This document shows positions 1,323 to 30,778 of a stretch of DNA of 64,000 nucleotides, piece after piece. Source of the DNA: Patescibacteria group bacterium (GTDB taxonomy: Bacteria; Patescibacteriota; Minisyncoccia; Phycocordibacterales; UBA918); contig JBCCYW010000001.1 in NCBI GenBank assembly GCA_039188945.1, forward strand, positions 43,003 to 107,002, given 5' to 3'. Numbering within the stretch: the stretch's first letter is position 1; every line of letters starts with the position of its first letter. The notes beneath the pieces were generated by a model, which worked only from the letters and a program-made list of their open reading frames with translations, had not been told where the DNA came from and did no database searches. Position numbers and translations under genes: made by a program.

Positions 1323-1339
1323 CGTGCTAAAATAGACAT

Positions 1340-2308: not shown

Positions 2309-2310
2309 CT

Positions 2311-2643: not shown

Positions 2644-2666
2644 CTGAATAGCGTATACTAAGATCA

Positions 2667-3272
2667 ATGTTTGATCTTGAGGGAACTAAGAATGAACGAG
2701 GTATCATACTGATACTGGCCTATATCATCGGTTTCACCAGTGGTTACATTGCCTTCGGCTATCAGGACAATTATTTGCTCAAACAACCCAAACCATCTCT
2801 AGAGCAAACGAAGCAGCAGATACAGGGAGAACAGATGGTTGCTGAACCAAGTCTCACGACGTCTGTTCCTGAAGAAGGATCTGGCCGGCTGCGGTACGCT
2901 AGTGGCGTGCTCGAATATGTACACGAAGATGGAACGGTTCGAGCACTGAGCTTCTTACAAACTCCTTCTCTTGCGGCTTCTGCACTGTTGGGGGCAGATC
3001 AGCAAGGTGTCCACACTGCTTTGGATGCTTACAATACCAGTCCTGATGAGAGATTCGCATTTTTTTGCGAGCAAAAACTAGATCAAAGCCAGTGCTATCC
3101 ATTTGTCTATGATAGTACAGAAGATGAGATACGCTTTGTCAGAGAACGTGAAGTACCATTTCCTATAAGCATTGATGTAGCACGTAGGGTCTACTGGAAT
3201 GAGGACGGTATTGTGTTGGGTGAGTTTCATTCGCGCCAGAAAGATCAGCCCTGGATTGTCTCTATTGACTAA
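2667..3272 (+). CDS. Hypothetical membrane-anchored protein
   Basis: 201-aa ORF with an N-terminal TM helix (GIILILAYIIGFTSGYIAFGY). No recognisable domain. Confidence 0.5.
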   Translation: MFDLEGTKNERGIILILAYIIGFTSGYIAFGYQDNYLLKQPKPSLEQTKQQIQGEQMVAEPSLTTSVPEEGSGRLRYASGVLEYVHEDGTVRALSFLQTPSLAASALLGADQQGVHTALDAYNTSPDERFAFFCEQKLDQSQCYPFVYDSTEDEIRFVREREVPFPISIDVARRVYWNEDGIVLGEFHSRQKDQPWIVSID

Positions 3273-3329
3273 ACAGGCCTAAATTCGTAGTATTACGCCG
3301 TTAAATCCACATGTGTTTGAAGGTACTGT

Positions 3330-3403
3330 GGGCCCGTAGCTCAGATGGCTAGAGCACCTGTTTTGCACTCAGGAGGTCGCTGGTTCAAGTCCAGTCGGGT
3401 CCA
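3330..3403 (+). tRNA. tRNA-Ala (anticodon UGC)
   Basis: Cloverleaf folded by hand. Acceptor GGGCCCG/CGGGTCC has the G3:U70 alanine identity pair. D arm GCTC-AGATGGCTA-GAGC. Anticodon loop TTTGCAC gives anticodon TGC. T arm GCTGG-TTCAAGT-CCAGT. Discriminator A; no encoded CCA. Confidence 0.9.
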
Positions 3404-3423
3404 CAGTGCCTTTAAGTATTTGT

Positions 3424-3545
3424 GGGCCTGTTCATTAGTCTCCCAGACTAATGAACCTCAGATGGCTAGGGGCAATAACTGCTGGGAGCAGTTATTGCGG
3501 TTTCCGTTCAGTATAGGTCGCTGGTTCAAGTCCAGTCGGGTCCAC
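3424..3545 (+). pseudogene. Degenerate tRNA-Ala-derived copy with two inserted perfect 12-bp hairpins
   Basis: It shares the 5' GGGCC and D-loop CTCAGATGGCTAG with the intact tRNA. The whole 3' half (AGGTCGCTGGTTCAAGTCCAGTCGGGTCCAC) is identical. Hairpin GTTCATTAGTCT/CCCA/GACTAATGAAC sits between the acceptor and D arm. Hairpin GCAATAACTGCT/GGGA/GCAGTTATTGC replaces the anticodon arm. Confidence 0.6.
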
Positions 3546-3578
3546 GGTCATTGTCACTATTTGTTTATGAATTATTTT

Positions 3579-3657
3579 GGGAGTCACTCAGGAGGGTTCA
3601 TTAACATGGGGTGTTAGTGAGCGGTTCAACTCAGGTCCACAGTGCCTTTAAGTATTT
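3579..3657 (+). repeat. Third, more decayed tRNA-Ala 3'-half copy
   Basis: It contains GTCACTCAGGAGG and GGTTCAACTCAGGTCCACA remnants. An exact 24-nt direct repeat GGTCCACAGTGCCTTTAAGTATTT lies at 3398-3421 and 3634-3657. Confidence 0.5.
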
Positions 3658-3670
3658 ATATGGGTCTATT

Positions 3671-3708
3671 AAACAAAGCGCTCTCCATTGACTGAGAGCG
3701 CTTTGTTT
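3671..3708. terminator. Bidirectional hairpin terminator between the tRNA cluster (+) and the HAD gene (-)
   Basis: Perfect 15-bp stem AAACAAAGCGCTCTC / GAGAGCGCTTTGTTT with an 8-nt loop. T/A-rich flanks on both strands. Confidence 0.7.
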
Positions 3709-3710
3709 GT

Positions 3711-4406
3711 TTACTTCAACATCTCTTGTAGTTTTTTGTAGGTATCTAAATGATCTTCTACTGCAATGGTGTCGATTACACCAATAACTGATTCATCATT
3801 ACCGCCAGGATGTAATCTGTCTCCAAAATAAACTGCTTCTTCTTTGTTCCAGCCCATATAGTCAATAAGCTTTGCGACGTTATAGCCTTTGTGTAAATCT
3901 TTGTGTAAATAATCAAAGCTGGTGGACCCACCAATTTTTACGCTAACTTCTGCAGAGACAAAAGGAATTTTATCTAATAAGTCATTTCGCTTACTACTAT
4001 CGGGATCATAGGCGCGTTTGACTTCTACAGGGGCTCTGTTTCCAATTGGACTAAAACAGACCAGTGCACCACGATCTTCAAGCGGAGCCCAGTCTTCATT
4101 CGGTTCTTCATCAAGTAGCTCCTTTAATTTGGCAACATGCTCAAAAATTTCTTGTTTATGAGATTCAGACAATTCTTCTCGCCAGAGTTCTTTATTGGCC
4201 ACATCAGTGGCATGATTGCCACATTGCCCCATCGTAATGGCTGGCAAGTTATCACTTTGCCAGGCAATGTCATGCAAAGCTTGTCCACTCACTATGATGA
4301 TGTCGTGAGGGGTCTCATCTAGAAGCTTATACATCTCTGGCAAGATCGGCTCACGAGAGGGGGCAATAGTCTGATCAAGATCAAAAAACAAGTGTTTGTA
4401 CTTCAT
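3711..4406 (-). CDS. HAD-superfamily hydrolase (HAD-IIB-like phosphatase)
   Basis: 231 aa. N-terminal motif I FFDLDQTI (DxD). C-terminal GDRLHPGGND motif IV-like. Confidence 0.7.
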   Translation of the reverse strand: MKYKHLFFDLDQTIAPSREPILPEMYKLLDETPHDIIIVSGQALHDIAWQSDNLPAITMGQCGNHATDVANKELWREELSESHKQEIFEHVAKLKELLDEEPNEDWAPLEDRGALVCFSPIGNRAPVEVKRAYDPDSSKRNDLLDKIPFVSAEVSVKIGGSTSFDYLHKDLHKGYNVAKLIDYMGWNKEEAVYFGDRLHPGGNDESVIGVIDTIAVEDHLDTYKKLQEMLK

Positions 4407-4656
4407 AAAGACAGCTAAAGTATACAGTTTGTATAACTATGGAAAACTGGAATTGTTCACTTCACAAAGCTATTTTGTGGTGGTAGTATGTGCGCGAGTC
4501 ACGAATTAAGAGATCCGGTAAGCAGTGACCAAAGAGGCTTCATGAGCGGCAAATAAGCTCAAAATCCACACAAACGAAGGATTTTGTACTCAATGTGCCG
4601 CTGATACAAGCGGACGCGGATCTCAAAAACGGACTCAATAACTACTCCTATTTGTT

Positions 4657-5430
4657 ATGTCTGGATGGATACAGACAGCTCAGGCTGCTGAGGGAATATC
4701 AGTAAAACTAGACCCATATATTGTGGGAGAGTTTGCAGGTGTCGCAATTACCTCAACCATGCTAACCGTGTGGTTGGCGATGTTTTTGATTGCTGTGTTA
4801 GTAGTCAGTCTTGGTGTACTCAAAAAAGTTCCAGGCAAACTGCAAAGTATCGTTGAGGTAGTTATTGGTGGTGCATTCAATTACATGGCAACCACGCTTG
4901 GCAGCAAGGAAGCTGCGAAGAAGTATTTTCCAGTAGTCATGACTATCTTTATGTTTCTTTTAGTTATGAACTGGGTGGGACTCTTACCAGGCGTTACAAC
5001 CATTGGCTTAATGGAAGGGTATGGTGATAAGAGCCATTTGGTGCCATTCTTTTACCCACCAGCGACTGACCTCAACATCGCCATCGCGTTTGCTGTTGTT
5101 GCCATGGCTACGATTTGGTTTGCGGGCGTAGCAGCACTGGGAGTGTTCAAATACGCTAGTAAGTTTATTAGTTTCAAATCACCTCTAGCATTCCTAGTTG
5201 GTATTATCGAACTTATTTCTGAAATTGGACGCTTGGTAAGCTTCTCATTTCGATTGTTTGGTAATATCTTTGCTGGAAAAACCTTGTTGGTGGTGGCCAC
5301 ATTCTTTGTGCCGTTTATCCTGCCGGTACCAATTTTGGCGTATGAGGTGTTTGTAGGCTTTATCCAAGCTGGAGTATTTGCCTTCTTGACCTTAGTGTTC
5401 ATCAAGCTAGCTATTGAAGAACCGCATTAG
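4657..5430 (+). CDS. atpB: F0F1 ATP synthase subunit a
   Basis: Polytopic protein with the conserved Arg helix (SFSFRLFGNIFAGKTLL). First gene of the atp cluster. Confidence 0.9.
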   Translation: MSGWIQTAQAAEGISVKLDPYIVGEFAGVAITSTMLTVWLAMFLIAVLVVSLGVLKKVPGKLQSIVEVVIGGAFNYMATTLGSKEAAKKYFPVVMTIFMFLLVMNWVGLLPGVTTIGLMEGYGDKSHLVPFFYPPATDLNIAIAFAVVAMATIWFAGVAALGVFKYASKFISFKSPLAFLVGIIELISEIGRLVSFSFRLFGNIFAGKTLLVVATFFVPFILPVPILAYEVFVGFIQAGVFAFLTLVFIKLAIEEPH

Positions 5431-5510
5431 TCCCGTTAGAGATTATGAACAAGTTCACAAACAACAAAAAAGTATCATACATGACAAAACTTAATTATCT
5501 CTAACGGGAT
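5430..5510. repeat. Inverted-repeat element GTCCCGTTAGAGAT / ATCTCTAACGGGAT with a 53-nt spacer
   Basis: The left arm overlaps the atpB stop codon TAG. The same core (TCCCGTTAGAG / CTCTAACGGGA) recurs at 59993-60115. A partial third half-site ATGAGTCCCG lies at 5523-5532. Confidence 0.6.
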
Positions 5511-5586
5511 TAGTGAGTAATCATGAGTCCCGCAAACAGATCAGGCGTGACTCATAGTTGCACATTAATCACTAAGTAACTCAATT

Positions 5587-5853
5587 ATGTCTCCAGAAAT
5601 GGAATTGGCGCTCCAGGCGTCACAAATGAGTGCCGACTCAATCAAGGCGATTGCAATGGCGCTTGCTGCTGGTATCGGTGTACTCGGTCCAGGTATCGGT
5701 ATTGGTCTTTTGGTTTCAAAAGCCCTTGAAGCAATGGGTCGTAACCCTGAAGCTGCACCACAAATTCAGAGCACCATGATTCTTGGTATCGTGTTCGTGG
5801 AAGCTCTCGCTATTTTTGCACTCGTTGTAGCCTTCGTTATCCGCTTCGCCTAA
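5587..5853 (+). CDS. atpE: F0F1 ATP synthase subunit c
   Basis: 88-aa hairpin proteolipid (GIGIGLLVSKALEAMGRNPEA ... ILGIVFVEALAIFALVVAF). Confidence 0.9.
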   Translation: MSPEMELALQASQMSADSIKAIAMALAAGIGVLGPGIGIGLLVSKALEAMGRNPEAAPQIQSTMILGIVFVEALAIFALVVAFVIRFA

Positions 5854-5882
5854 CGTTCTAGGTCACTACGGCCATTTGTATT

Positions 5883-6329
5883 ATGGAACAACTAATCGAA
5901 GCGTTTGGCATTGATACTAAAGGTATTGTTATTCAAATCATTAACTTCGCTATTTTAGCGGCCGCTTTAACGTACTTTCTGTACAACCCAGTCCTCAAAC
6001 TCCTGAATGAACGGGAAGAAACCATCAAACAAGGTCTCAAGGACGCAGAGGATGCGAAGCAGGCTAAAGAATCAGCAGAAGAAGAGAAGAAAGCGGTGCT
6101 TGGTGAAGCTAATAAAGAAGCGGAAGCGGTGGCTGCCCGAGCAAAAGAACATGCCGATGAAAAAACTGCTGGGATTGTTGCTACTGCTGACGAGAAAGCT
6201 GCTGCAATCGTGAAGGACGCTGAAGCCAAGAGTGAAGAAATGAAAGCGCAAGCTCGCAAAGATAGTGAGGCTGAAATAAGTAAGCTGGCTATTCTAGCGG
6301 CTGAGAAAATTCTTCGTAAAGAAGCCTAA
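5883..6329 (+). CDS. atpF: F0F1 ATP synthase subunit b
   Basis: N-terminal TM helix, then a long Ala/Lys/Glu-rich helix. Position in the operon fits. Confidence 0.85.
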   Translation: MEQLIEAFGIDTKGIVIQIINFAILAAALTYFLYNPVLKLLNEREETIKQGLKDAEDAKQAKESAEEEKKAVLGEANKEAEAVAARAKEHADEKTAGIVATADEKAAAIVKDAEAKSEEMKAQARKDSEAEISKLAILAAEKILRKEA

Positions 6330-6336
6330 ACCAAAC

Positions 6337-6714
6337 ATGCGTGATAGTTACCTACAAGCCACTTTGGCATTAATTCAAGAAGGATACGATCCCCAAAAGC
6401 TCATTGATGGTCTTAAAGAGACCTTGGCTGCCAGAGGACACCAAGCTCTGTTGCCAAGTATCTTGCAAGCTGTTTTACGTGAACTTGAAGCGGGTAAGAC
6501 AACCACGAAGGTAACTGTCGCAAAAGCTACTGATGCTGAAGTCCTTAAAGCTGAAATCACCGCCGCACTAAAAAATATTCAAGCAACCGATGAGGTTGTG
6601 ACTGAAGTAGATGAAACTATTGTTGGTGGCTTTGTGGCTACTGGTAATGGAAAAACTATCGACGCTTCTTATAAACACAAGTTGGTACACCTGTATCGAT
6701 CACTTACTACCTAA
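6337..6714 (+). CDS. atpH: F0F1 ATP synthase subunit delta (short, 125 aa)
   Basis: Sits between atpF and atpA. Helical N-domain. Truncated relative to typical ~180-aa delta. Confidence 0.7.
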   Translation: MRDSYLQATLALIQEGYDPQKLIDGLKETLAARGHQALLPSILQAVLRELEAGKTTTKVTVAKATDAEVLKAEITAALKNIQATDEVVTEVDETIVGGFVATGNGKTIDASYKHKLVHLYRSLTT

Positions 6715-6729
6715 CATTCACACGTAATT

Positions 6730-8292
6730 ATGAGCACAACAATAATTGATCGGATCAAAAACGAGATCCAAAACCTCGACACCACGGCTTTGCCAGAGGA
6801 AGTCGGTATCGTCCAGACTGTTGGAGACGGTATTGCTGAAATAGAAGGACTCCAGAGCGCCCAGATGATGGAGATGGTGGTCTTTCAAGATGGTGATGGA
6901 AAGTCACTCGAAGAGACCATCGCCAAAGACGATGCGCTGTATGGTCTTATCCTCAACCTTGAAGAAGATGTCGTGAAGGTGGTTGTGCTTGGAGAGAGTG
7001 ATCGTGTGAAGGAGGGGATGCGCGTGATGCGTACTGAGAAGCTGCTCTCGATCCCGGTCGGTGAGGGAATTGTAGGGCGTGTCGTAAGTCCGCTTGGTGA
7101 GGCACTTGATGGGAAGGGGACGATCGAAACCAATCGTGATATGCCAATTGAGCGGGTAGCGTACGGAGTAATGGACCGCTCTGGTGTGAACGAACCAGTC
7201 CATACTGGCGTAAAGGCTATCGACTCAATGATTCCAATTGGTCGCGGGCAACGCGAACTCATCATTGGCGACCGCCAGACTGGTAAAACTACCATCGCGA
7301 TCGACACCATCATCAACCAAAAAAACGAACCAAAAGACAAACGCCTGATCTGTATTTATGTAGCAATTGGCCAGAAGCGTTCAAAGACCGCGTCGTTAGT
7401 TGCCAAATTACAAGAAGCTGGAGCGATGGAATACACCACCGTGATTGCTACTTCTGCTTCTGAGCCTTCTCCAATGCTCTTCTTGGCACCGTTTGCAGGT
7501 GCTGCTATTGGTGAGTACTTCATGGAGCAAGGAAAAGACGTGCTTGTGGTATTTGATGACCTTTCAAAGCACGCAGTTGCGTACCGACAGATGTCACTTC
7601 TCCTGCGACGTCCGCCGGGACGTGAAGCGTATCCGGGAGATATCTTCTACCTGCACTCACGTCTCTTGGAACGTTCGGCCAAGCTCTCAGCTGAGCTGGG
7701 TGGAGGCTCGATCACTGCACTCCCGATTATTGAAACCCAAGAAGGTGACGTATCTGCCTACATTCCAACTAATGTTATCTCAATTACCGATGGTCAGATT
7801 TTCCTTGAAACTGATCTCTTCAACAAGGGTATTCGCCCAGCACTTAATGTTGGTATTTCGGTATCACGCGTCGGTAGTTCTGCGCAAACCAAGGCGATGA
7901 AAAAGGTGTCTGGAAAGATTCGTCTCGAGTTGGCACAGTTTCGTGAGCTCGAAGCCTTCATGCAGTTTGCCTCCGATCTTGATGAAGATACAAAAGCTCG
8001 CATTGATTCTGGTCGTAAGTATGTAGAACTTCTCAAGCAAGACCAAGGAGACCCAATGCCATTTTATAAGCAAGTACTTTCAATTTATGCTGCCAACCAG
8101 GGTCTCTACGACGGTACGGCTCCAGACATGGTTCGTGAAATTGAAGCAAAGTACATTGAAATGGTTGAACGTGATCATAAGGACATTCTTGAAACTATTG
8201 AAACATCACGAGCCATCGATGATGTAACTGAAAAAATGGATCAAAGCATCGAAGCTTTCAAAACTGCACACAGTGATTGTTACGGAGCATAA
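6730..8292 (+). CDS. atpA: F0F1 ATP synthase subunit alpha
   Basis: 520 aa. Walker A GDRQTGKT. Typical alpha motifs. Confidence 0.95.
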
Positions 8293-8300
8293 AATTCAGC

Positions 8301-8630
8301 ATGACAAGTCTGGTCGATAAAAAGTACAAAAAAAATTCAGGCGCCGCGAGTGTTCTCGCGACGCCCAAGGGCATCTTAGCCGTCATTGACGATCGGTCTC
8401 ATTTCGAGAACTTGACCGTCTTTGTTCACGAATGTGAGCCTGAGGAGCGTGACAGCTTCATTTTTGTCGTTGAGGGCAATGCTCAGGTCGATAAAATAGT
8501 ACATGGTTCCTTCGGGCACTACACAAGAGAACTCCTTGACGCTGATGCCAAAGAAGGAACTGTTCGAGATGTTGAGAAGTGCCATTGCAATGGTCTCCAA
8601 TCTTCTGATGTTTCAATACATTTAACATAA
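8301..8630 (+). CDS. Hypothetical protein inserted between atpA and atpG (possible cupin-like small protein)
   Basis: 109-aa ORF fills an otherwise unexplained 340-nt gap inside the atp operon (MTSLVDKKYKK...FVHECEPEERDSFIFVVEGNAQV...HGSFGHYTRE). No atp subunit matches it. Confidence 0.4.
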   Translation: MTSLVDKKYKKNSGAASVLATPKGILAVIDDRSHFENLTVFVHECEPEERDSFIFVVEGNAQVDKIVHGSFGHYTRELLDADAKEGTVRDVEKCHCNGLQSSDVSIHLT

Positions 8631-8647
8631 TTTTGTATATTGTCAAT

Positions 8648-9553
8648 ATGGCGCTTAAACAAATCAAAAACAAAATAATTTCTACCCAAAAGACTGGCAA
8701 AGTGACTAAGGCCATGGAGTCTGTGTCTGCGGTGAAGATGCGTAAGAGCCAGGAGCGGGCGTTTGCTGGCCGACCATATGTTCATGCCGCGCTACGAATT
8801 CTTTCCCGCTTAGCTAACTCGCAAGATGGCCTCTCACACCCACTAGCTGAGAAACGAAGTGCTGGTAAGAAACTTATAGTTATTGTGACCAGCGATAAGG
8901 GTTTGGCGGGGAGTGTGAATAGCGCCGTACTCAAGCGAGTTGATGATATGGCTAAGAATGGCAATGAGTTTGACGTGATCGCAGTTGGTCGTAAGGCAAT
9001 AGAGTATGCAAAGCGCGAGGGACACACGCTGCTTGGGGAGTACATGAACATTGCTGATGATGTCACTATGGAAGATGTCTACGATATGACCGCCAAGGTG
9101 ATGGAGGCATTTTCAGGAGACTCTTCATATAGTGAAGTGGAGGTAGTCTATCAAAATTTTCTCTCAACTTTCGAGCAAGAACCAACCAAGCGACAGGTGT
9201 TGCCGCTCGATCCAGCTGAACTGCATTACATCATGCGTGGCATCAAGCCAAAAGAAGGGAAATGGAGTGGCGATGTAGAGGGGCCAGAATCAACCATTGG
9301 GTATACGGTAGAGCCTTCTGCAGAAGAAGTGTTGAATACCCTTATTCCCCAGTTGGTACAGATTGTGCTCTACCACGCCCTGCTTGAAAGCAAAGCGTCT
9401 GAGCATTCTGCGCGGATGGTGGCGATGAAAAACGCCACTGACAAGAGTAAGGAAGTAGCCAAGGCACTTACACTCAAGTACAACAAAGCCCGCCAGGCAG
9501 TGATTACGGCTGAGGTAAGTGAAATTACCGGAGGTATTGAAGCTATGAAGTAG
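8648..9553 (+). CDS. atpG: F0F1 ATP synthase subunit gamma
   Basis: MALKQIKNKIISTQKTGKVTKAMESVSAVKMRK. C-terminal ...ITGGIEAMK. Alternative start at 8633. Confidence 0.9.
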   Translation: MALKQIKNKIISTQKTGKVTKAMESVSAVKMRKSQERAFAGRPYVHAALRILSRLANSQDGLSHPLAEKRSAGKKLIVIVTSDKGLAGSVNSAVLKRVDDMAKNGNEFDVIAVGRKAIEYAKREGHTLLGEYMNIADDVTMEDVYDMTAKVMEAFSGDSSYSEVEVVYQNFLSTFEQEPTKRQVLPLDPAELHYIMRGIKPKEGKWSGDVEGPESTIGYTVEPSAEEVLNTLIPQLVQIVLYHALLESKASEHSARMVAMKNATDKSKEVAKALTLKYNKARQAVITAEVSEITGGIEAMK

Positions 9554-9579
9554 TTCCTGGTAGAAGAGGGCTTTTGTGA

Positions 9580-11028
<1,449 letters not shown>

Positions 11029-23539: not shown

Positions 23540-24565
23540 ATGATTACATTTAAACCAAAAAACGTAACGAAGAAGCTGTTGGCAGTACTGCCAGACCGGG
23601 CTTGTGATGTGCTGGAGAAGCGCTATGGACTCGGTAAAGACGGCGAAACATATACTCTGGAATCGATCGGTCAGTCATACGGTATTACCCGTGAGCGCGT
23701 CCGTCAGATTGAAAACTACGGTATTCAGAGCATTCAAAAAGCCGATGTATACGGTGAGTTTGAAGAGGTATTTGCTGAGCTGCATAAGCTGATTGATGAA
23801 CTTGGCGGCGGTCTCATAGCTGAGCATGTACTCCTTGACGAGCTTACCAACGATCCAATCCTTCGTAATCATATTTATTTCCTCCTCGTTCTTGGTGACC
23901 CCTTCTATCGATCAAAAGAGAACCCCCAGTACGCTCACCGTTGGTACACGGAAAAGAAAATTGCTGAGCTAGTTGAAAAAGCCCTCAAAAGTGTTCATGG
24001 CACCATCAAACGAGACGAGCTTATCTCTGAGCAAGAAGTACTCAATCGCTTCCGAAACGAGCTGATTGAAATTGCTGATAAGTATGATGAACAGGTGATG
24101 AAGCGCTGGCTCATGATTTCAAAGCAAATCAGTAACAATCCACTTGGTGACTGGGGACACGCAGATAGTCCAAATGTCCGCGTTAAAGGTATTCGTGATT
24201 ATGCGTACCTAGCGGTAAAGCGTCACGGTTCACCAATGCACTTCCGTGAAGTAGCAGAAGCAATTGACGAATTGTTTAATCGCAAAGCACACACTGCTAC
24301 CACACACAACGAACTCATCAAGGACGACCGGTTTGTGCTCGTCGGCCGTGGACTCTACGCTCTCTCAGAATGGGGCTACTCAGCTGGTGTCGTAAAAGAA
24401 GTGCTCCGCGATATTCTTGAAAAAGAAGGACCGCTATCTCGTGAGGAACTTATTGATAAGGTACGCAAAGAACGATACGTCAAAGACAACACGATTGTTG
24501 TTAATCTTCAGGATGGCGCCCTCTTCAAGCGCCTCGCCAACGGTACGTACGCTGTTGTTGAATAA
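23540..24565 (+). CDS. DNA-binding protein: N-terminal sigma-70 region-4 HTH plus C-terminal HARE-HTH-like domain(s)
   Basis: LESIGQSYGITRERVRQIE matches sigma region 4. PMHFREVAEAIDEL...DDRFVLVGRGLYALSEW resembles the HARE-HTH of RpoE/delta. Confidence 0.55.
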   Translation: MITFKPKNVTKKLLAVLPDRACDVLEKRYGLGKDGETYTLESIGQSYGITRERVRQIENYGIQSIQKADVYGEFEEVFAELHKLIDELGGGLIAEHVLLDELTNDPILRNHIYFLLVLGDPFYRSKENPQYAHRWYTEKKIAELVEKALKSVHGTIKRDELISEQEVLNRFRNELIEIADKYDEQVMKRWLMISKQISNNPLGDWGHADSPNVRVKGIRDYAYLAVKRHGSPMHFREVAEAIDELFNRKAHTATTHNELIKDDRFVLVGRGLYALSEWGYSAGVVKEVLRDILEKEGPLSREELIDKVRKERYVKDNTIVVNLQDGALFKRLANGTYAVVE

Positions 24566-24583: not shown

Positions 24584-24620
24584 CAATGCCCGGCGACTGT
24601 TCAGCAGTCGCCGGGCATTG
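24584..24620 (+). terminator. Perfect 14-bp hairpin (terminator-like; weak T-run)
   Basis: CAATGCCCGGCGAC-TGTTCA-GTCGCCGGGCATTG, immediately after the 23540 gene stop. Confidence 0.5.
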
Positions 24621-24639
24621 TTGTACAATAGTCGTATCA

Positions 24640-25959
24640 ATGTCTGATGCAGTTAAAGCTTTGTTCGGCACACTTGGCGGCCCACTTTTGGTACTAGTGG
24701 GTCTCTATTTCATGAATCTTTCACTGCGGATCATGGGTATTGACGCTGAGCCAGTGTTTGCTTTAGTGATCGCCCTAACCCCTCTATGGCTGCCATTTGT
24801 GCTCTTTTACTTGTTTTATGACAATTGGATGGATTTTGTGCGCCTGCAGTTTGCTGTAGAAAACGGTCGAACAACGCTGCGTATTAAATTACCGCAAGAG
24901 GTATTCAAATCACCGGAGGCGATGGAAACAGTCTTTAATCAAATCCATAATCTCAATGGTCCTGACAATCTTTGGCAAGCGTACATCGATGGCAAAGTAC
25001 CGCTGATGTTCAGCTTTGAATTAGTTTCGATTGGTGGTGACGTACGGTTTTACGCCAACGTGCCAACTAAAAAAATTAAAAATCTACTCGAAGCACAGCT
25101 CTACGCTCAGTACCCAGGTATTGAAATAGTTGAAGAAACACTCGACTACACAGCTGAAATCGACAAGATCGGGGAAGACTTTGGCTGTATGTCGTTTCAC
25201 TTGGTTAAAAAGGAAGATCAGGAGTTTCCTATCAAAACCTACATTGATTTTGGCCTAGATAAAATGCCGAAGGAAGAAGAGAAGGTCGAGCCAATGGCGC
25301 CAATGTTAGAAGCGCTTGGTGCTGCCTCGCCAAACGAACGGTTATGGATTCAATTCCTAGTCAAACCGCACGGCAAGAAAAACTTTAATAATGGTCACCT
25401 TTCAGCTAGTCCTACCTGGGAAAAGAAAGTGTTTGCTAAGATTGACCAGTTACTTGGACGTGAAGGAGGTTCAAAGCTTGGCCCAGCTGAGCTGGAGCAA
25501 CAGCCCCGACTCACGACTGGTGAGCGAGACACCATCACTGCCATGGAGCGCAATGCTGGAAAGTACGCTTACGATACTGCTGTGCGCTGGATGTACATTG
25601 CTCGAGAAGGACATTTCAATGGAGATACAATTGGGCTCATTAATCGCAGCTTTAGTAATTACGACATCCTCAACCGCAACGGTATTGGCATTCGTTGGCG
25701 GACAGACTTTGATTATAATTGGTTTTCTGATTTTAGCGGCAAACGAAAGTTAAAAATGAAAAATGACGAACTGAAACAGTATAAGCTGCGCAAATATAGC
25801 AACGGCGGTCGTTCGGTAGATAAAACAAAAATAATGACTTCTGAAGAGCTCGCTACGGTATGGCATATTCCTGGGCGGTCAGTAGTCACTCCAGGACTAG
25901 CTCGCATTCCTTCTTCGCGCAGTGAAGCTCCAGCTAACTTGCCAATTAATGCTACGTAG
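24640..25959 (+). CDS. Hypothetical membrane-anchored protein (2 N-terminal TM helices plus a ~380-aa soluble domain)
   Basis: 439 aa from the Met at 24640. C-terminal ...ELATVWHIPGRSVV. No domain recognised by eye. Confidence 0.5.
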   Translation: MSDAVKALFGTLGGPLLVLVGLYFMNLSLRIMGIDAEPVFALVIALTPLWLPFVLFYLFYDNWMDFVRLQFAVENGRTTLRIKLPQEVFKSPEAMETVFNQIHNLNGPDNLWQAYIDGKVPLMFSFELVSIGGDVRFYANVPTKKIKNLLEAQLYAQYPGIEIVEETLDYTAEIDKIGEDFGCMSFHLVKKEDQEFPIKTYIDFGLDKMPKEEEKVEPMAPMLEALGAASPNERLWIQFLVKPHGKKNFNNGHLSASPTWEKKVFAKIDQLLGREGGSKLGPAELEQQPRLTTGERDTITAMERNAGKYAYDTAVRWMYIAREGHFNGDTIGLINRSFSNYDILNRNGIGIRWRTDFDYNWFSDFSGKRKLKMKNDELKQYKLRKYSNGGRSVDKTKIMTSEELATVWHIPGRSVVTPGLARIPSSRSEAPANLPINAT

Positions 25960-26991
25960 ATGCACGTTCACTATACCGACAACGTCACTTTGGTGACGCC
26001 TAAGAGAAGCTTACTGCACCGTAGTTTTCGGATCTTTGGTGTTTTGCTCGTGATTACTATTCCACTAGCGCTACTGGCAGCAGGCTATGGCTACGCACAA
26101 CTGCAGCCGCCAGATTCGTTTCCCAGCGGCGAACGCATTACGATTGAGGAGGGAAGTACTGTGCCAGAAATTGTCGCTCTATTTAAAGAAAATAATCTAA
26201 TTCGTTCACGAGATATCTTTTATCTTGCTCTCGTTTTAGCAACCGATCCAACTACAATTAAAGCGAGCACCTATCGCTTTCCAGAACCACTTAACGCAAT
26301 TGAGTTAGCGCAGCGATTGGCAGAAGGTGAGTTTGGGATCGATCTGGAACGGTTTGTGCACTACGAAGGGGAGCGAGTCGAGCAAATTGCCGAACGAGCA
26401 GAGATTGTACTGGAAGACTTTGATGCTGAACGTTTTATCCAATTAGCTTTACCAGGAGAAGGAAGATTATTTCCTGATACCTACCTAATCCCTGAGAATT
26501 TTTCGGCTGATGAACTCTACGAACTCATGATTGAGAATTTCGAAGCTCGGGTCGGCCCATTGCGACCAGCCATTGAAGCTAGCAACTTCACTGAAGAAGA
26601 GGTGCTTATTCTGGCTTCAATTCTAGAACGTGAGGCAAATTCACGTGAATCAAAGCGCATTGTATCCGGCATTCTTCAAAATCGGCTGGATATTGATATG
26701 GCGCTACAAGCTGACGCTACTATTGAATACGCACTCGAGGGCCCTCTTAATGAATTAGCGCCGGGTGAATTAGCTCGCAACTTGCAAGAACTTGAAAGTC
26801 CGTACAACACCTACAAAAATACGGGGTTACCACCAACACCAATTGGCAATCCTGGCTTAACTGCAATTGAAGCGGTGCTTGAACCAGATGCATCTTCATA
26901 CCTCTTCTATATCACCGGGCGCGACGGCAATTTCTACTACGCTAACAACTTTACTGAGCACCAGGCAAATGTGAACGCTTATTTACGTTAG
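25960..26991 (+). CDS. mltG: Endolytic murein transglycosylase MltG (YceG family)
   Basis: N-terminal TM helix. YceG signature ASILEREANSRE...IEYAL. Confidence 0.85.
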   Translation: MHVHYTDNVTLVTPKRSLLHRSFRIFGVLLVITIPLALLAAGYGYAQLQPPDSFPSGERITIEEGSTVPEIVALFKENNLIRSRDIFYLALVLATDPTTIKASTYRFPEPLNAIELAQRLAEGEFGIDLERFVHYEGERVEQIAERAEIVLEDFDAERFIQLALPGEGRLFPDTYLIPENFSADELYELMIENFEARVGPLRPAIEASNFTEEEVLILASILEREANSRESKRIVSGILQNRLDIDMALQADATIEYALEGPLNELAPGELARNLQELESPYNTYKNTGLPPTPIGNPGLTAIEAVLEPDASSYLFYITGRDGNFYYANNFTEHQANVNAYLR

Positions 26992-27119
26992 ACATTTTTA
27001 TGGTAAATTGTTGATGTGTTCGCTAGCGGCGCGCTCTTCTGTGGGAAGCCGGGATCGAGCGCGGCGTGGACCCGCTAGTGGACACACCTACCAGGCAACC
27101 ACAAGTCCTGGTGTTTTTT

Positions 27120-28172
27120 ATGAAAACTGTATTTGTAGGACTTTCAGGCGGTGTCGATTCTTCAGTGGCAGCACTCAGGCTCAAAAACCAGGGCTTTAAC
27201 GTCGTCGGAGTGTTTATTAAAGTCTGGCATCCAGATTGGATGGTGTGCAATTGGGAAGAGGAGCGACTCGATGCGATGCGAGTTGCTGCTCACCTCGATA
27301 TTCCATTTTTAACCTGCGATGCTGAAGAAGCCTACAAGCAAGAGGTGGCTGATTATTTTATCGCCGCCTACCAAGCCGGCAAGACACCCAATCCAGATGT
27401 CATGTGCAACCAGTCAGTGAAATTTGGTGCCTTTCTAAGATTTGCTAAAGAAAAGGGAGCTGATTATGTAGCTACCGGACACTATACTCGCAAGACCGTT
27501 GCCGAAGATGGTACGCAGCAGCTCTGGCGTGGCGTCGATACGAACAAAGACCAGAGTTATTTTCTCTGGACCCTTACTCAAGAGCAACTCAAACAAGTGC
27601 TGCTTCCAGTAGGCGACACAACTAAGGACAAGATCAGAGAAGAAGCTGAGGCAGCTGGTGTTCCTACTGCTAGTAAGAAAGATAGTCAGGGAATCTGCTT
27701 CCTCGGACATATCGATATTCCCGAATTCCTCAGTCATTACACTGAGCTAGTTCCAGGAGACGTTCGCAATGAAGCAGGCGAGACGATCGGACAACACGAA
27801 GGCGCCTTGGTGTATACCATCGGACAACGACATGGTTTTACGATAACTAATACAGATACTGAACCAAAACCACACTTTGTCATCGCTAAAGACACAACCC
27901 AAAACAGCATTACCGTCTCAACTGAACGCCCATTCTTAGAAAGTAGTGCACTAGTTACGTTGCTGACTCCGAATCTTATTGCTGAAATACAACCTGGAGA
28001 TAGGATTGAAGCTCAATTCCGCTATCGGCAAACACCGTTTGCAGTCACCGTAAAAGAAACTGGTAATGAAGTTGTCCTGGCGGTTGTAGAAACTACTGAT
28101 ACACCCGCTGCAGGGCAATCATGTGTACTGTATCGAGGTGAGGAGTGTCTTGGTGGTGGTATTATTGGGTGA
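27120..28172 (+). CDS. mnmA: tRNA-specific 2-thiouridylase MnmA
   Basis: PP-loop VFVGLSGGVDSSVAA. Catalytic Cys pattern. 351 aa from the Met at 27120. Confidence 0.9.
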   Translation: MKTVFVGLSGGVDSSVAALRLKNQGFNVVGVFIKVWHPDWMVCNWEEERLDAMRVAAHLDIPFLTCDAEEAYKQEVADYFIAAYQAGKTPNPDVMCNQSVKFGAFLRFAKEKGADYVATGHYTRKTVAEDGTQQLWRGVDTNKDQSYFLWTLTQEQLKQVLLPVGDTTKDKIREEAEAAGVPTASKKDSQGICFLGHIDIPEFLSHYTELVPGDVRNEAGETIGQHEGALVYTIGQRHGFTITNTDTEPKPHFVIAKDTTQNSITVSTERPFLESSALVTLLTPNLIAEIQPGDRIEAQFRYRQTPFAVTVKETGNEVVLAVVETTDTPAAGQSCVLYRGEECLGGGIIG

Positions 28173-29011
28173 TGTCAGTTCTCATTACTAAAGCCGACGG
28201 CAACCAAGAACCTTTCAAGGAGGAGAAACTGAAGCATTCATTGCGTCGAGCTGGAGCACACAAAGATGAGATAGACTCGATTCTCGCTCAAGTAACCTCT
28301 GAACTTCATAACGGAATAACAACCCAAGAGATTTATCGTCGCGCCTTTGCTTTGTTACGTGAAAGCTCCGCTCCAGTACGAGCCCGTTATTCACTGCGCC
28401 GCGCTTTGTTTGGCTTAGGGCCAACCGGCTTTCCGTTTGAGACTTTTTTAGCTCGCCTGTTCGAGGCTGAGGGCTACACCACCAGTAACAGTAATATTCT
28501 GCAGGGCAAATGCGCTGAGCATGAAATTGATCTAGCGGCCTACCAGCCAGAGCATAGTTTCGTAGCCGAAGCCAAGTTCCATGCTCGGCCAGGCATTAAG
28601 TCTGATCTACAAGTGGCAATGTATTCGTATGCTCGATTGCTAGATCTTCAGGAGCAGAAAATATGTAACGAAGATATTTGTGGTATTCAAGAGTTCTGGA
28701 TCATTACCAATACTAAATTTACCAGTGCAGCGCGCAAGTATGGTGAATGTGTTGGACTTAATATGTTGAGTTGGGACTACCCTAAGACAGGAAATCTTCA
28801 CGATCTGATCCAAAAGCATGGCGTATACCCAATTACCGTTCTCCAAAGCCTTTCTTCAGCGCAAGCAGCGACCTTAATTGCACGAGATATTATTCTTTGT
28901 AGTGAGCTCATTCAAAACCACAAAATACTTCGGCATCTCCACATCAGTAAGCGAAAAACAGAGTCAATTTTGAATGAAGCGACTGCACTATGTCGAAAAA
29001 CTGAACAATAA
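28172..29011 (+). CDS. ATP-cone domain fused to an Mrr-type (PD-(D/E)xK) restriction-endonuclease-like domain
   Basis: N-terminus VLITKADGNQEPFKEEKLKHSLRRAG... matches the ATP-cone as in NrdR/RNR. Then FETFLARLFEAEGY...EIDLAAYQ...FVAEAKF is the Mrr_cat D...E.K core. The start overlaps the mnmA stop (ATGA). Confidence 0.65.
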   Translation: MSVLITKADGNQEPFKEEKLKHSLRRAGAHKDEIDSILAQVTSELHNGITTQEIYRRAFALLRESSAPVRARYSLRRALFGLGPTGFPFETFLARLFEAEGYTTSNSNILQGKCAEHEIDLAAYQPEHSFVAEAKFHARPGIKSDLQVAMYSYARLLDLQEQKICNEDICGIQEFWIITNTKFTSAARKYGECVGLNMLSWDYPKTGNLHDLIQKHGVYPITVLQSLSSAQAATLIARDIILCSELIQNHKILRHLHISKRKTESILNEATALCRKTEQ

Positions 29012-29096
29012 GCTTTTCTGACTGCTTTTTGTCAATAGATTCTTAAAAAACCCTTGTGATATAATCCCCGCATAGTAGATTATTCGAGTTTTTTGT

Positions 29097-29666
29097 ATGT
29101 CAGAAGTAGAAAATCAAGAAAAGCAAGAAGGACAAAAGACTGTTGTGGCCTTTGTGGTCGGTCTTCTCGTCGGTGGACTCCTCGTCTGGGTATTCTCAGC
29201 TCCGGGAGATATGCACAAGCACGATGATGATCGCAATAAAGACGAAGCAGCAGAAACAGGGGAAACTGTCGGGGAAGAAGTGGACTCTACTAACGAAACT
29301 GCAGAGGATCAGGTTGCCGAACCAGAAACTCCAGCGGTAGCAGCCTTACCAGTAGGCGACGGCAGTGTTGAAGTCGCTGACCAACCAGCCGGTACGAGCG
29401 TAGCATTGAGCGGTGCAACCTATCCGACCAGTGAAGGCTGGATCGGTGTGCGTGACTACGCAAATGGACAGCTCGCAGGATTGCTTGGTGTGGTTCGCTA
29501 CAGTGAGGAGCAAGGTCTTGTACCACAGGAAATTATCCTCCAACGAGCGACTGAAGCTGGCAATGAGTACGCTGTAGTCTTCTACACAGAGAGCGGCGAT
29601 CGACAGTTCAGTCTGGCAGACGATGTACAGATTGATGAAGTGTTCGCAACCTTCACGGCTCGATAA
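29097..29666 (+). CDS. Hypothetical membrane-anchored protein with an acidic low-complexity linker
   Basis: 189 aa. One TM helix (VVAFVVGLLVGGLLVWVF), then a D/E-rich stretch and a ~90-aa C-terminal domain. A strong extended -10 (TGTGATATAAT) lies at ~29056. Confidence 0.5.
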   Translation: MSEVENQEKQEGQKTVVAFVVGLLVGGLLVWVFSAPGDMHKHDDDRNKDEAAETGETVGEEVDSTNETAEDQVAEPETPAVAALPVGDGSVEVADQPAGTSVALSGATYPTSEGWIGVRDYANGQLAGLLGVVRYSEEQGLVPQEIILQRATEAGNEYAVVFYTESGDRQFSLADDVQIDEVFATFTAR

Positions 29667-29730
29667 TCACCAATTCTTGTTCAAAAAGCGCTCGTATATG
29701 GGCGTTTTTTGTGTGGTGTATACTGGTGCC

Positions 29731-30513
29731 ATGGCAGAATTTGTAAAGCGCTATAACCCTAACCGTAGTGCTGAATGGAACTATGGTGGCAGTAAGTGGA
29801 AATTGTCTCGCTCCAAGATTGATTTGTTTGTTGAGTGCCCACGTTGTTTTTATCTTGATAACAAACTAGGTACGAAACGACCTGGCTTTCCAGCATTTAA
29901 TCTCAACATCGCCGTCGACGAGTTATTTAAAAAGGAGTTCGATGAACATCGGAAAGCCGGAACACCACACCCCATAATGGAAGAGTATGGTATTGAGGCA
30001 GTGCCGTTTGCCCACAACGATCTTGATGCCTGGCGAGACAACTTTACGGGCATCACCTATACCGAACCAGAAACTGGACTTACGGTAAGTGGGGCGGTGG
30101 ATGATATTTGGGTGACTCCACAAGAGACGCTCATTATTGTTGATTATAAATCAACGTCTAAAGAGGGTCGTATTGAAGCCCTGGGCGACAGTCCTTGGGA
30201 GCAGCAATACACCAGACAGCTTGGTGTCTACCGTTGGCTCTTAGAACAAAATGGCTTCACTGTTGAAACGACTGGTTATTTGATATATGCAAACGCTAGT
30301 AAGGCTGAGGTTGGCTTCAATAATCAGCTCACATTCGAAACCACCTTGGTATCAGTTGAAACGACGACGGACTGGATACGAGACACGCTAGTAGAAATTA
30401 AAGATAGCTTAGAAAAAGAGCATATCCCGGCATCCGGACCGACGTGTGAATATTGTCCGTATCGCGAAGCCGCCGGTAAAAAGCTGTTAACCATCCACAA
30501 TAAACTAAAATAA
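29731..30513 (+). CDS. PD-(D/E)xK nuclease with a Cas4/AddB-like Cys cluster (putative Fe-S nuclease)
   Basis: N-terminal CPRCFYL. Core IIVDYKST (D-x-K). C-terminal CEYCPYREA. This is the Cas4/RecB-family architecture. Confidence 0.6.
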   Translation: MAEFVKRYNPNRSAEWNYGGSKWKLSRSKIDLFVECPRCFYLDNKLGTKRPGFPAFNLNIAVDELFKKEFDEHRKAGTPHPIMEEYGIEAVPFAHNDLDAWRDNFTGITYTEPETGLTVSGAVDDIWVTPQETLIIVDYKSTSKEGRIEALGDSPWEQQYTRQLGVYRWLLEQNGFTVETTGYLIYANASKAEVGFNNQLTFETTLVSVETTTDWIRDTLVEIKDSLEKEHIPASGPTCEYCPYREAAGKKLLTIHNKLK

Positions 30514-30514
30514 T

Positions 30515-30778
30515 ATGAGTAATTTTTCTGATCAGGTAAAACAAGTGGTTGCAAAGATTCCTAAGGGCCAGGTTATGACCTATAGTGAAGTAGCTAAGCG
30601 AGCTGGTTCACCAAAAGCCGCGCGGGCTGTCGCTAACCTCATGGCCAAAAACTATGATCCAGCAATTCCTTGTCACCGAGTGATTAGAACAGATGGTTCC
30701 CTAGGAGGCTATAACCGCGGCGGGGTAGAGAAAAAGCGTGCTATATTACAAGCTGAAGGAGCTGTCTTATGGAAGTAA
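30515..30778 (+). CDS. MGMT-family protein (methylated-DNA-protein-cysteine methyltransferase DNA-binding/active-site domain only)
   Basis: 87 aa. Active-site motif PCHRVI. Start is 1 nt after the nuclease stop. Confidence 0.75.
   Translation: MSNFSDQVKQVVAKIPKGQVMTYSEVAKRAGSPKAARAVANLMAKNYDPAIPCHRVIRTDGSLGGYNRGGVEKKRAILQAEGAVLWK

What the first reader, a model, noticed from the sequence alone, without database searches (positions are those of the whole stretch)
28172..29011. ATP-cone domain fused to an Mrr-type restriction-endonuclease fold, translationally coupled to mnmA
The N-terminal ~90 aa (VLITKADGNQEPFKEEKLKHSLRRAG...) match the ATP-cone, the ATP/dATP-sensing regulatory domain known from NrdR and ribonucleotide reductases. 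The next ~110 aa match the Mrr_cat PD-(D/E)xK core (FETFLARLFEAEGY ... EIDLAAYQ ... FVAEAKF). A ~90-aa uncharacterised tail follows. The start codon overlaps the mnmA stop (ATGA). Inference: this is a nucleotide-pool-sensing nuclease, either a regulatory or defence-type effector gated by ATP/dATP, or a DNA-repair or regulatory factor. I cannot verify whether this exact fusion has been characterised.
Basis: partly seen in the sequence, partly recalled or inferred. Interest (0 to 1): 0.65.

Follow-up and report, generated by a model that had tools for sequence, protein, structure and literature searches.

The report
ATP-cone-gated AF1548/Mrr-type nuclease
This gene encodes an ordinary member of a large, conserved but never-studied protein family that joins an ATP/dATP-sensing "ATP-cone" to an intact DNA-cutting domain, so it is probably a nuclease switched by the cell's adenine-nucleotide status rather than a restriction or defence enzyme.

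Summary
The ORF is real: + strand, ATG 28172 to TAA 29011, 279 aa. It has three domains. The first is an ATP-cone (Pfam 35.9 bits, cut-off 25.8). The second is a PD-(D/E)xK nuclease domain, and the third a helical C-terminal domain. The last two together match the crystal structure of AF1548 (PDB 1Y88, function unknown) at E=1e-30. So the "uncharacterised tail" is the known AF1548-like_C domain, which looks HhH-like.

The catalytic residues E90, D120, E133 and K135 are invariant in 128 of 128 diverse representatives. The ATP-cone residues that contact nucleotide in E. coli NrdR are also conserved. The most conserved 9-mer in the family is the junction between cone and nuclease, LGPTGFPFE.

The family is large (more than 3,200 clusters at 90% identity) and almost always has this same architecture. 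It occurs in Patescibacteria, Bacteroidota, Planctomycetota, Gammaproteobacteria and several archaeal groups.

The mnmA adjacency (1-nt overlap TGATG, not ATGA) is common but specific to one lineage. Other bacteria place the gene in a Usp/Hsp20/β-CASP stress island. I found no methyltransferase, PADLOC hit, viral copy or defence neighbours, and the gene evolves as slowly as mnmA.

No functional study was found. The best reading is an adenine-nucleotide-gated housekeeping or stress nuclease. Biochemistry has not been done.

The parts
28172..29011 (+). Complete ORF, 279 aa plus TAA stop: ATP-cone, then AF1548/Mrr-type nuclease, then AF1548-like_C domain
   Evidence: AF2 model pLDDT 94.9, pTM 0.91
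28172..28417 (+). ATP-cone domain (aa 1-82; Pfam match aa 5-77). Residues I5, K7, E13, P14, F15, K19 and L20 align to the inner-site nucleotide contacts of E. coli NrdR
28415..28441 (+). Cone-nuclease junction LGPTGFPFE (aa 82-90). It is the most conserved 9-mer of the family and ends in the invariant helix-alpha1 glutamate E90
   Evidence: 3.79 bits per column; G83, G86, F89 and E90 in 128/128
28427..28786 (+). PD-(D/E)xK nuclease domain (aa 86-205). Catalytic residues are E90 (28439-41), D120 (28529-31), E133 (28568-70) and K135 (28574-76). E118, R155, D158 and N180 are also invariant
   Evidence: D/E/K are equivalent to D38/E51/K53 of 1Y88 (PMC1821046, PMC1874628)
28787..29008 (+). C-terminal helical domain (aa 206-279; Pfam AF1548-like_C aa 219-273), HhH-like and probably binding the nucleic-acid backbone
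   Evidence: Folded alone it matches the 1Y88 C-terminus (TMq 0.74). It then matches RAD51-N, Pol beta/kappa/iota, Hel308 domain 5 and BAF only weakly
28170..28174 (+). TGATG: the mnmA stop (TGA) and the start codon (ATG) share base 28172
   Evidence: Gaps of 5 bp or less between mnmA and the gene occur in 20 related loci
27120..28172 (+). mnmA (tRNA 2-thiouridylase), the upstream operon partner in Patescibacteria

Best explanation
The gene encodes a soluble three-domain enzyme. The central domain is an Mrr/AF1548-clade PD-(D/E)xK nuclease with a complete metal-binding and catalytic set (E90, D120, E133-x-K135). It most likely cleaves nucleic acid, probably DNA, in a Mg2+-dependent way with little or no sequence specificity. 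The C-terminal HhH-like helical domain would hold the backbone.

The N-terminal ATP-cone binds an adenine nucleotide (ATP, with dATP or ADP competing) at a single NrdR-like 'inner' site. As in ribonucleotide reductase and NrdR, occupancy would change how the domains pack or how the protein oligomerises. That change would pass through the invariant LGPxGFPFE junction straight into catalytic helix alpha1, switching cleavage on or off.

Biologically it behaves as a vertically inherited chromosomal housekeeping or stress gene that ties nucleic-acid processing (repair, turnover or salvage) to energy or dNTP status. It does not behave as a restriction or defence enzyme.

Shown here: the architecture, the fold, conservation of catalytic and nucleotide-contact residues, the distribution and the genomic contexts. 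Inferred: nucleotide binding, the direction of the switch, the substrate and the physiological role.
For: Domains.

Active site: E90, E118, D120, E133, K135, R155, D158 and N180 are invariant in 128/128 representatives drawn from 50%-identity clusters. These are the same D/E/K predicted as catalytic in 1Y88 (PMC1821046, PMC1874628).

Cone: K7 in 128/128, G10 in 128/128, F15 in 117 plus 11 Y, K19 in 124, and K or R at position 76 in 128/128. The residues align one-to-one with the E. coli NrdR contacts V51, K53, E59, P60, F61, K65 and L66 (bioRxiv 10.1101/2025.03.28.645925).

Coupling: the junction 82-90 is the most conserved 9-mer, and pTM 0.91 implies a fixed arrangement of the domains.

Fixed architecture: almost all of the top 150 representatives are 265-310 aa and cover the query end to end. 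ATP-cone is detected in 117/128 and Mrr_cat in 115/128.

Housekeeping character: median identity is 63.2% against 62.4% for mnmA in close relatives, and 43.4% against 48.2% in distant ones. A roughly 10-gene syntenic block is conserved in Patescibacteria. There is no PADLOC hit and no relative in 2.9 million viral contigs. No methyltransferase or defence gene was recognised next to it in the loci examined.

Stress link: in Bacteroidota-type loci the gene sits between tandem Usp genes and a β-CASP/RMMBL hydrolase. Hsp20, a GAF histidine kinase and a response regulator fused to a Crp-type regulator lie nearby.

DNA rather than RNA: the C-terminal fold matches, though weakly, are all DNA-binding HhH-type modules.
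Against: There are no biochemical data for any family member, AF1548 included. Mrr_cat is sub-threshold for this particular sequence (19.7 against 21 bits). The C-terminal fold matches beyond 1Y88 are not statistically significant (E of 0.37 or higher). The NrdR outer-site tyrosine (Y131) aligns to a variable position (R77), so ATP/dATP discrimination of the NrdR kind is not assured. Both conserved operon partners, mnmA and the β-CASP/RMMBL protein, are RNA-linked, which leaves an RNA substrate open. AF1548 itself lacks the cone, so the nuclease module can exist unregulated. I could not inspect coordinates or PAE, so the cone-nuclease interface is inferred from pTM alone.
Confidence: 0.6

Rival explanations
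1. It is an ATP-gated ribonuclease. It would act on tRNA, rRNA or mRNA, for example RNA turnover when energy charge falls, rather than on DNA.
For: The two conserved operon partners are both RNA-linked. One is mnmA (tRNA thiolation), found in 54 of 83 loci. The other is a β-CASP hydrolase with the RMMBL 'RNA specificity' domain, found directly downstream in 8 non-CPR loci. PD-(D/E)xK nucleases such as Can2/Card1 cut RNA as well as DNA, and 2 of 128 representatives weakly hit Card1_endonuc.
Against: The nearest fold relatives of the nuclease domain are DNA enzymes (MspJI, AspBHI). The C-terminal domain resembles DNA-binding HhH modules. Synteny in Patescibacteria spans about 10 unrelated genes, so adjacency to mnmA is weak functional evidence. 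β-CASP enzymes also include DNA-repair nucleases (established knowledge).
Confidence: 0.15
2. It is a defence or abortive-infection effector. This would be a restriction-type nuclease unleashed when phage infection perturbs ATP or dNTP pools.
For: It has a Mrr-type catalytic fold. Some databases name relatives 'restriction endonuclease'. It is a single-gene sensor-plus-nuclease arrangement analogous to CARF nucleases. Disrupted copies exist: an IS200 insertion in L033 and frameshifts in L029 and L030.
Against: There is no PADLOC match. No methyltransferase or recognised defence gene neighbours it in any surveyed locus. No viral copies were found. Gene order is conserved and the rate of evolution equals that of mnmA, where defence genes are typically patchy and fast-evolving. 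There is no Mrr_N or other modification-reader domain.
Confidence: 0.1
3. It is a non-catalytic, nucleotide-dependent DNA-binding regulator. This would be an NrdR analogue that uses the nuclease fold and HhH domain only to bind DNA. A variant of this reading is that the cone is only an oligomerisation module and senses no nucleotide.
For: The best-characterised stand-alone ATP-cone protein, NrdR, is a repressor. Inactive restriction-endonuclease folds are common DNA binders, and 2 of 128 representatives weakly hit NA-iREase1.
Against: Every catalytic residue is invariant in 128/128 sequences across bacteria and archaea, which is not expected for a degenerate fold. The nucleotide-contact residues of the cone are also conserved. 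There is no Zn-ribbon, and TIGR00244 (NrdR) scores 12.6 bits against a cut-off of 124.65.
Confidence: 0.1

Closest known systems
AF1548 of Archaeoglobus fulgidus (PDB 1Y88, structural genomics, function unknown; grouped with Mrr_cat and COG1787 in Steczkiewicz et al. 2012, PMC3424549)
   Same: The nuclease domain and the C-terminal helical domain are homologous over aa 92-271 (E=1.2e-30; profile E=2e-53; Foldseek E=1.9e-15). The D/E/K triad is the same.
   Different: AF1548 has no ATP-cone, whereas the fused form is the norm in the family. AF1548 has Q where this family has H117.
NrdR (ATP-cone plus Zn-ribbon repressor of ribonucleotide reductase genes)
   Same: The ATP-cone fold matches at 1.8 A rmsd over 82 residues. 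The inner-site contact residues are conserved. The likely logic is the same: adenine-nucleotide occupancy controls an output that acts on nucleic acid.
   Different: There is no Zn-ribbon. The output domain is a nuclease, not a DNA-binding finger. The outer-site Tyr is not conserved. The NrdR model fails (12.6 against 124.65 bits).
ATP-cone 'activity site' of ribonucleotide reductases (NrdA, NrdD, NrdB)
   Same: It is the same regulatory module placed N-terminal to a catalytic domain. ATP/dATP-driven oligomerisation there is the precedent for the proposed switch (established knowledge).
   Different: The catalytic partner is unrelated. Sequence similarity is weak (E about 0.03-0.4).
Mrr/MspJI/AspBHI type IV restriction endonuclease catalytic domains
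   Same: The PD-(D/E)xK core is of the Mrr_cat type. Of the family representatives, 115 of 128 hit PF04471, and Foldseek matches MspJI and AspBHI.
   Different: There is no modification-reader domain (Mrr_N or SRA-like), no defence context, and slow vertical evolution.
Can2/Card1/Cdn1 (CARF-sensor PD-(D/E)xK nucleases gated by cyclic oligoadenylate)
   Same: It works alike in principle: an adenine-nucleotide-binding sensor domain fused to a restriction-endonuclease-fold nuclease. There are weak structural hits and weak Card1_endonuc hits.
   Different: The sensor is an ATP-cone, not CARF. There is no CRISPR or CBASS context. The ligand is presumably a housekeeping nucleotide, not a second messenger.
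XPF/Mus81/Hef structure-specific endonucleases (nuclease domain followed by a C-terminal (HhH)2 domain); comparison from general knowledge, not tested here
   Same: The order of modules is the same: a restriction-endonuclease-like nuclease followed by an HhH-type DNA-binding domain.
   Different: There was no detectable sequence or Foldseek match to ERCC4 domains here. The HhH assignment of the tail is only weakly supported.

Membership tests
ATP-cone (PF03477) | Profile score above Pfam's gathering threshold | tested here: met
   35.9 bits against 25.8, aa 5-77; 117 of 128 family representatives also match
ATP-cone (PF03477) | Beta-hairpin lid plus four-helix cone fold | tested here: met
   AF2 model pLDDT 94.9; Foldseek to NrdR 9gex at rmsd 1.8 A over 82 aa, and to RNR cones at E about 1e-3
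ATP-cone (PF03477) | Conserved nucleotide-contact residues (lid Lys, E-P-F, helix-1 Lys-Leu) | tested here: met
   K7, E13, P14, F15, K19 and L20 align to NrdR K53, E59, P60, F61, K65 and L66. K7 is in 128/128 and K19 in 124/128
ATP-cone (PF03477) | Actual binding of ATP or dATP and an allosteric effect | not testable with these tools
   Needs ITC or DSF and activity assays
Mrr_cat / PD-(D/E)xK nuclease | Profile score above the Pfam gathering threshold for PF04471 | tested here: not met
   This sequence scores 19.7 bits against 21. At family level 115 of 128 representatives match at E<=1e-3, best 9.8e-11. Membership of the clade therefore rests on homologues and on 1Y88
Mrr_cat / PD-(D/E)xK nuclease | Catalytic E...D...(D/E)xK motif present and conserved | tested here: met
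   E90, D120, E133 and K135 are invariant in 128/128
Mrr_cat / PD-(D/E)xK nuclease | Restriction-endonuclease-like alpha-beta-beta-beta-alpha-beta core | tested here: met
   Secondary structure H88-99, E103-111, E116-125, E128-135, H146-161, E174-179; 1Y88 match
Mrr_cat / PD-(D/E)xK nuclease | Phosphodiesterase activity | not testable with these tools
   No assay has been reported for any family member in the literature searched
AF1548-like family (PDB 1Y88; PF22357 C-terminal domain) | Homology across the nuclease and C-terminal helical domains; PF22357 above threshold | tested here: met
   E=1.2e-30 over aa 92-271; PF22357 29.8 bits against 23.9; C-terminal model TMq 0.74 to 1Y88
Type IV restriction enzyme Mrr, or a restriction-modification or defence system | Modification-reader domain, a partner methyltransferase or defence-island context, and a match to defence-system models | tested here: not met
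   No Mrr_N or other reader domain; no PADLOC hit; neighbours are housekeeping or stress genes; no viral copies
NrdR | N-terminal Zn-ribbon plus ATP-cone; TIGR00244 equivalog score | tested here: not met
   12.6 bits against a cut-off of 124.65; no Zn-ribbon, and the cone is at the extreme N-terminus

The most novel reading that the evidence does not exclude
This family would be a third functional class of ATP-cone proteins, after ribonucleotide reductases and NrdR. It would be a nuclease whose cleavage of DNA (or RNA) is set directly by the ATP/dATP or energy state of the cell.

In genome-reduced Patescibacteria that depend on salvage, it could be the feedback-controlled step that turns DNA into deoxynucleotides, or that processes stalled forks when dNTPs run low. 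In Bacteroidota it would be part of a Usp/Hsp20/β-CASP dormancy programme.
Probability: 0.3. Interest if true: 0.75.

Novelty: new variant of a known kind. Interest (0 to 1): 0.55.

Why it matters
ATP-cones are the classic allosteric sensors of the dNTP supply system, and only RNR and NrdR outputs have been studied. A nuclease output would link nucleotide or energy status directly to nucleic-acid cleavage.

The family is large. It is conserved about as strongly as mnmA across Patescibacteria, whose nucleotide economy is poorly understood, and it also sits in a stress island in Bacteroidota.

It is small, soluble and predicted with very high confidence, and a homologue has been crystallised. 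The hypothesis is therefore cheap to test. It would also finally give a function to the 2004 structural-genomics orphan AF1548.

Tried and rejected
- **Defence reading.** PADLOC scan: no hit. Viral contig scan with the two most conserved motifs: no relative.
- **NrdR membership.** Rejected.
- **Second ATP-cone gene in the window.** A family-cone HMM run against the six-frame ORFs gave one other hit, at 6298-6711. This is the ATP synthase delta subunit (OSCP) and the hit is spurious.
- **Promoter and terminator scan of 25800-29800.** Counts were no higher than in shuffled sequence, so it was uninformative.
- **Literature.** Nine full-text searches: ATP-cone with restriction endonuclease, nuclease, Holliday junction, endonuclease and Mrr; AF1548; 1y88; 'ATP cone domain-containing protein'; COG1787. 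They turned up only fold-level predictions for 1Y88 and no functional work. I could not retrieve the original ATP-cone description (Aravind, Wolf and Koonin 2000, cited from memory), so I cannot say whether it already lists this fusion.
- **mnmA adjacency as a family-wide functional link.** Rejected, because it is absent outside Patescibacteria.
- **Cone-less 221-aa representative P0202.** Probably a truncated gene call, since its cluster contains a 277-aa member.
Full report
**Observation**

The + strand ORF runs from ATG 28172 to TAA 29009-29011 and encodes 279 aa. An in-frame GTG at 28145 is unlikely to be the start, because homologues align from M1. An identical protein is in public data as 'MAG: ATP cone domain-containing protein [Patescibacteria group bacterium]'. 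The same gene order is found on an independent assembly.

**Domains**

Pfam gives three matches:
- ATP-cone, aa 5-77: 35.9 bits against a cut-off of 25.8.
- AF1548-like_C, aa 219-273: 29.8 bits against 23.9.
- Mrr_cat, aa 86-192: 19.7 bits, just under the cut-off of 21.

The weak Mrr_cat score is rescued in two ways. First, aa 92-271 match the crystal structure of A. fulgidus AF1548 (PDB 1Y88, 'unknown function') at E=1.2e-30, or 2e-53 with a family profile. Second, 115 of 128 diverse family members hit Mrr_cat at E<=1e-3, 117 hit ATP-cone and 70 hit AF1548-like_C. Steczkiewicz et al. 2012 place 1Y88 in the Mrr_cat/COG1787 group (PMC3424549).

An AlphaFold2 model built on 128 representatives has pLDDT 94.9 and pTM 0.91. 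Against the PDB, Foldseek returns the following:
- 1Y88 at E=1.9e-15.
- NrdR and RNR ATP-cones at about 1e-3, with 9gex at rmsd 1.8 A over 82 residues.
- Weaker matches to MspJI and AspBHI, and to the cA4-gated nucleases Can2 and Cdn1.

The tail folded alone (pLDDT 84) matches the 1Y88 C-terminus with TMq 0.74. Beyond that it matches only non-significantly (E of 0.37 or higher). Several of those weak matches, though not all, are DNA-binding HhH-type modules: the RAD51 N-terminal domain, Pol beta, kappa and iota, Hel308 domain 5 and BAF. So the 'uncharacterised tail' is a known domain with a solved structure, and it plausibly binds the DNA backbone.

**Conservation**

The word-indexed search found 3,226 clusters at 90% identity. 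The top 120 are all 274-296 aa, 66-75% identical (apart from the identical record) and share the architecture. The exhaustive search of 50%-identity representatives found 1,200 at E<=1e-3 and 433 at E<=1e-30. Almost all of the top 150 are 265-310 aa and cover the query end to end.

In an alignment of 128 representatives (33-48% identical to the query, apart from one close relative), these positions are invariant: K7, G10, G83, G86, F89, E90, G112, E118, D120, E133, K135, R155, D158, N180 and P220. D120, E133 and K135 correspond to the D38, E51 and K53 predicted as catalytic in 1Y88 (PMC1821046; PMC1874628). It is not met.

In the cone, I5, K7, E13, P14, F15, K19 and L20 align to E. coli NrdR V51, K53, E59, P60, F61, K65 and L66. 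Those residues line the inner nucleotide site (bioRxiv 10.1101/2025.03.28.645925). The NrdR outer-site Tyr131 aligns to a variable position (R77). A single nucleotide site is therefore more likely than the two-site ATP-plus-dATP mechanism of NrdR.

The most conserved 9-mer of the whole family is the cone-nuclease junction LGPTGFPFE (aa 82-90, 3.79 bits per column). It is more conserved than the catalytic GKCAEHEID and the WIITNTKFT motif. This is the sequence signature expected if the cone is mechanically coupled to catalytic helix alpha1.

**Distribution and context**

Species-representative genomes carrying the full-length protein include:
- Many Patescibacteria: Paceibacterota, Kaiser-, Zambryskii-, Adler- and Campbellbacteria.
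- Bacteroidota: Draconibacterium and Nonlabens.
- A gammaproteobacterium.
- Archaea: Methanocellales, Methanoperedens, Hadarchaeota and Aenigmatarchaeota.

Planctomycetota also appear.

Of the 83 loci with at least 1.3 kb of upstream sequence, 54 have mnmA immediately upstream on the same strand. In 20 of these the gap is 5 bp or less. These loci also share a longer block: a Sigma70_r4/HARE-HTH protein, a 457-aa unknown, YceG, mnmA, this gene, a 189-aa unknown, a PDDEXK_1/Cas4-like nuclease, an 87-aa MGMT DNA_binding_1 protein, an HD_4 protein and an M3 peptidase. Across that block this gene is exactly as conserved as mnmA: median identity 63.2% against 62.4% in close relatives, and 43.4% against 48.2% in distant ones.

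The 28 loci without mnmA include all the archaeal, Bacteroidota and gammaproteobacterial ones. The mnmA link is therefore an operon feature of one lineage.

A second, unrelated conserved context appeared in Nonlabens (L021) and in several metagenome loci (L068, L094, L099, L104 and L109, and partly L069, L080 and L095). Its gene order is as follows:
- A GAF histidine kinase.
- A response regulator fused to a cNMP-binding Crp-type regulator.
- Three to six tandem universal-stress-protein genes.
- A small unknown gene.
- The ATP-cone nuclease.
- A β-CASP/RMMBL metallo-hydrolase, directly downstream in 8 loci and usually within about 25 bp.
- An unknown gene.
- Hsp20.

This looks like a stress or dormancy island built around ATP-binding Usp proteins.

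Nowhere did I see a methyltransferase or a recognised defence gene next to the gene. PADLOC gives nothing, and 2.9 million viral contigs hold no relative.

**Interpretation**

The evidence supports an active PD-(D/E)xK nuclease whose N-terminal ATP-cone senses adenine nucleotides. The domains are tightly coupled, and the gene behaves as a chromosomal housekeeping or stress gene.

By analogy with RNR and NrdR, where ATP or dATP occupancy of the cone changes oligomeric state (established knowledge), I propose that nucleotide occupancy toggles cleavage through the invariant junction. The direction of the switch, the substrate and the physiological role are inferences. Candidate roles are repair of stalled forks when dNTPs are low, DNA turnover or salvage in salvage-dependent Patescibacteria, and nucleic-acid remodelling in dormancy.

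An RNA substrate remains a serious rival, because both recurrent operon partners are RNA-linked. The defence reading and the inactive-regulator reading are disfavoured by the context data and by the invariant active site respectively.

**Novelty**

The architecture is catalogued. Pfam domains are precomputed for these proteins, NCBI names them 'ATP cone domain-containing protein' or 'restriction endonuclease', and a relative lacking the cone was crystallised in 2004.

Nine full-text searches found only fold-level predictions for 1Y88 and no functional study of the fusion. The window's gene is thus an ordinary member of a large, uncharacterised family. As a system, an ATP-cone-controlled nuclease would be a new variant combining two known kinds: ATP-cone allostery and ligand-gated PD-(D/E)xK nucleases.

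**Limits**

Noticed in passing
L021:1-8300; L068, L094, L099, L104 and L109 (around positions 300-10000); partly L069, L080 and L095: In Bacteroidota-type loci the homologue lies in a conserved island. The order is GAF histidine kinase, a response regulator fused to a cNMP-binding/Crp HTH regulator, 3-6 tandem Usp genes, a small unknown gene, the ATP-cone nuclease, a β-CASP/RMMBL hydrolase (directly downstream in 8 loci), an unknown gene, Hsp20, and further unknown genes. It resembles a dormancy or stress regulon.
   Followed up: partly
L033:4028-5534 (Methanoperedens MAG); L029:5001-5830; L030:4131-4992: In L033 the gene is split between the cone and the nuclease by an inserted IS200-like Y1 transposase on the opposite strand (PF01797, E=2e-27). 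L029 and L030 carry apparent frameshifts at about the same place. So the gene is dispensable, or mis-assembled, in some genomes.
   Followed up: partly
window 28511-28513 (C114), 28520-28522 (H117), 28580-28582 (H137), 28748-28750 (C193): C114 (124/128), H117 (123/128), H137 (114/128) and C193 (124/128) are nearly invariant. From the strand topology they probably lie close together beside the active site, which suggests a possible structural metal site. AF1548 has Q at the H117 position. I could not check this without coordinates.
   Followed up: no
window 29698-30513 and 30515-30778: Two genes downstream lies a PDDEXK_1/Cas4-like nuclease with N- and C-terminal cysteine motifs. It is followed by an 87-aa protein consisting only of the MGMT DNA_binding_1 domain, which retains the PCHR motif. 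Both are syntenic with the ATP-cone nuclease across Patescibacteria, so this is a small neighbourhood of DNA-repair flavour.
   Followed up: partly
window 23540-24565: A 341-aa protein combines Sigma70_r4 with a HARE-HTH domain and a DUF3320-like stretch. It is the most conserved gene of the syntenic block, with median identity 76% in close relatives.
   Followed up: no
window 24586-25959 and 29097-29666: The 457-aa and 189-aa proteins have no Pfam match but are conserved in position across Patescibacteria loci. The 189-aa protein has an N-terminal hydrophobic segment and an acidic linker.
   Followed up: no
window 3453-3545: ARAGORN calls a 93-nt tRNA-Pro(GGG) next to tRNA-Ala(TGC). Rfam's tRNA model does not reach its gathering score there. 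It may be an intron-containing or otherwise atypical tRNA, or a false call.
   Followed up: no
P0233, P0293 and P0294 (Planctomycetota cluster): Some homologues carry an N-terminal extension of about 240 aa that is lysine-rich and histone-H1-like (a weak HC2 hit, below the Pfam cut-off) ahead of the cone. Other members of the same cluster are 280 aa, so this is either a DNA-binding add-on or a gene-calling artefact.
   Followed up: no
L020:6315-6974 (Draconibacterium): The convergent downstream neighbour is QueC, another PP-loop enzyme of the tRNA-modification pathways, like mnmA. This is probably coincidence.
   Followed up: no
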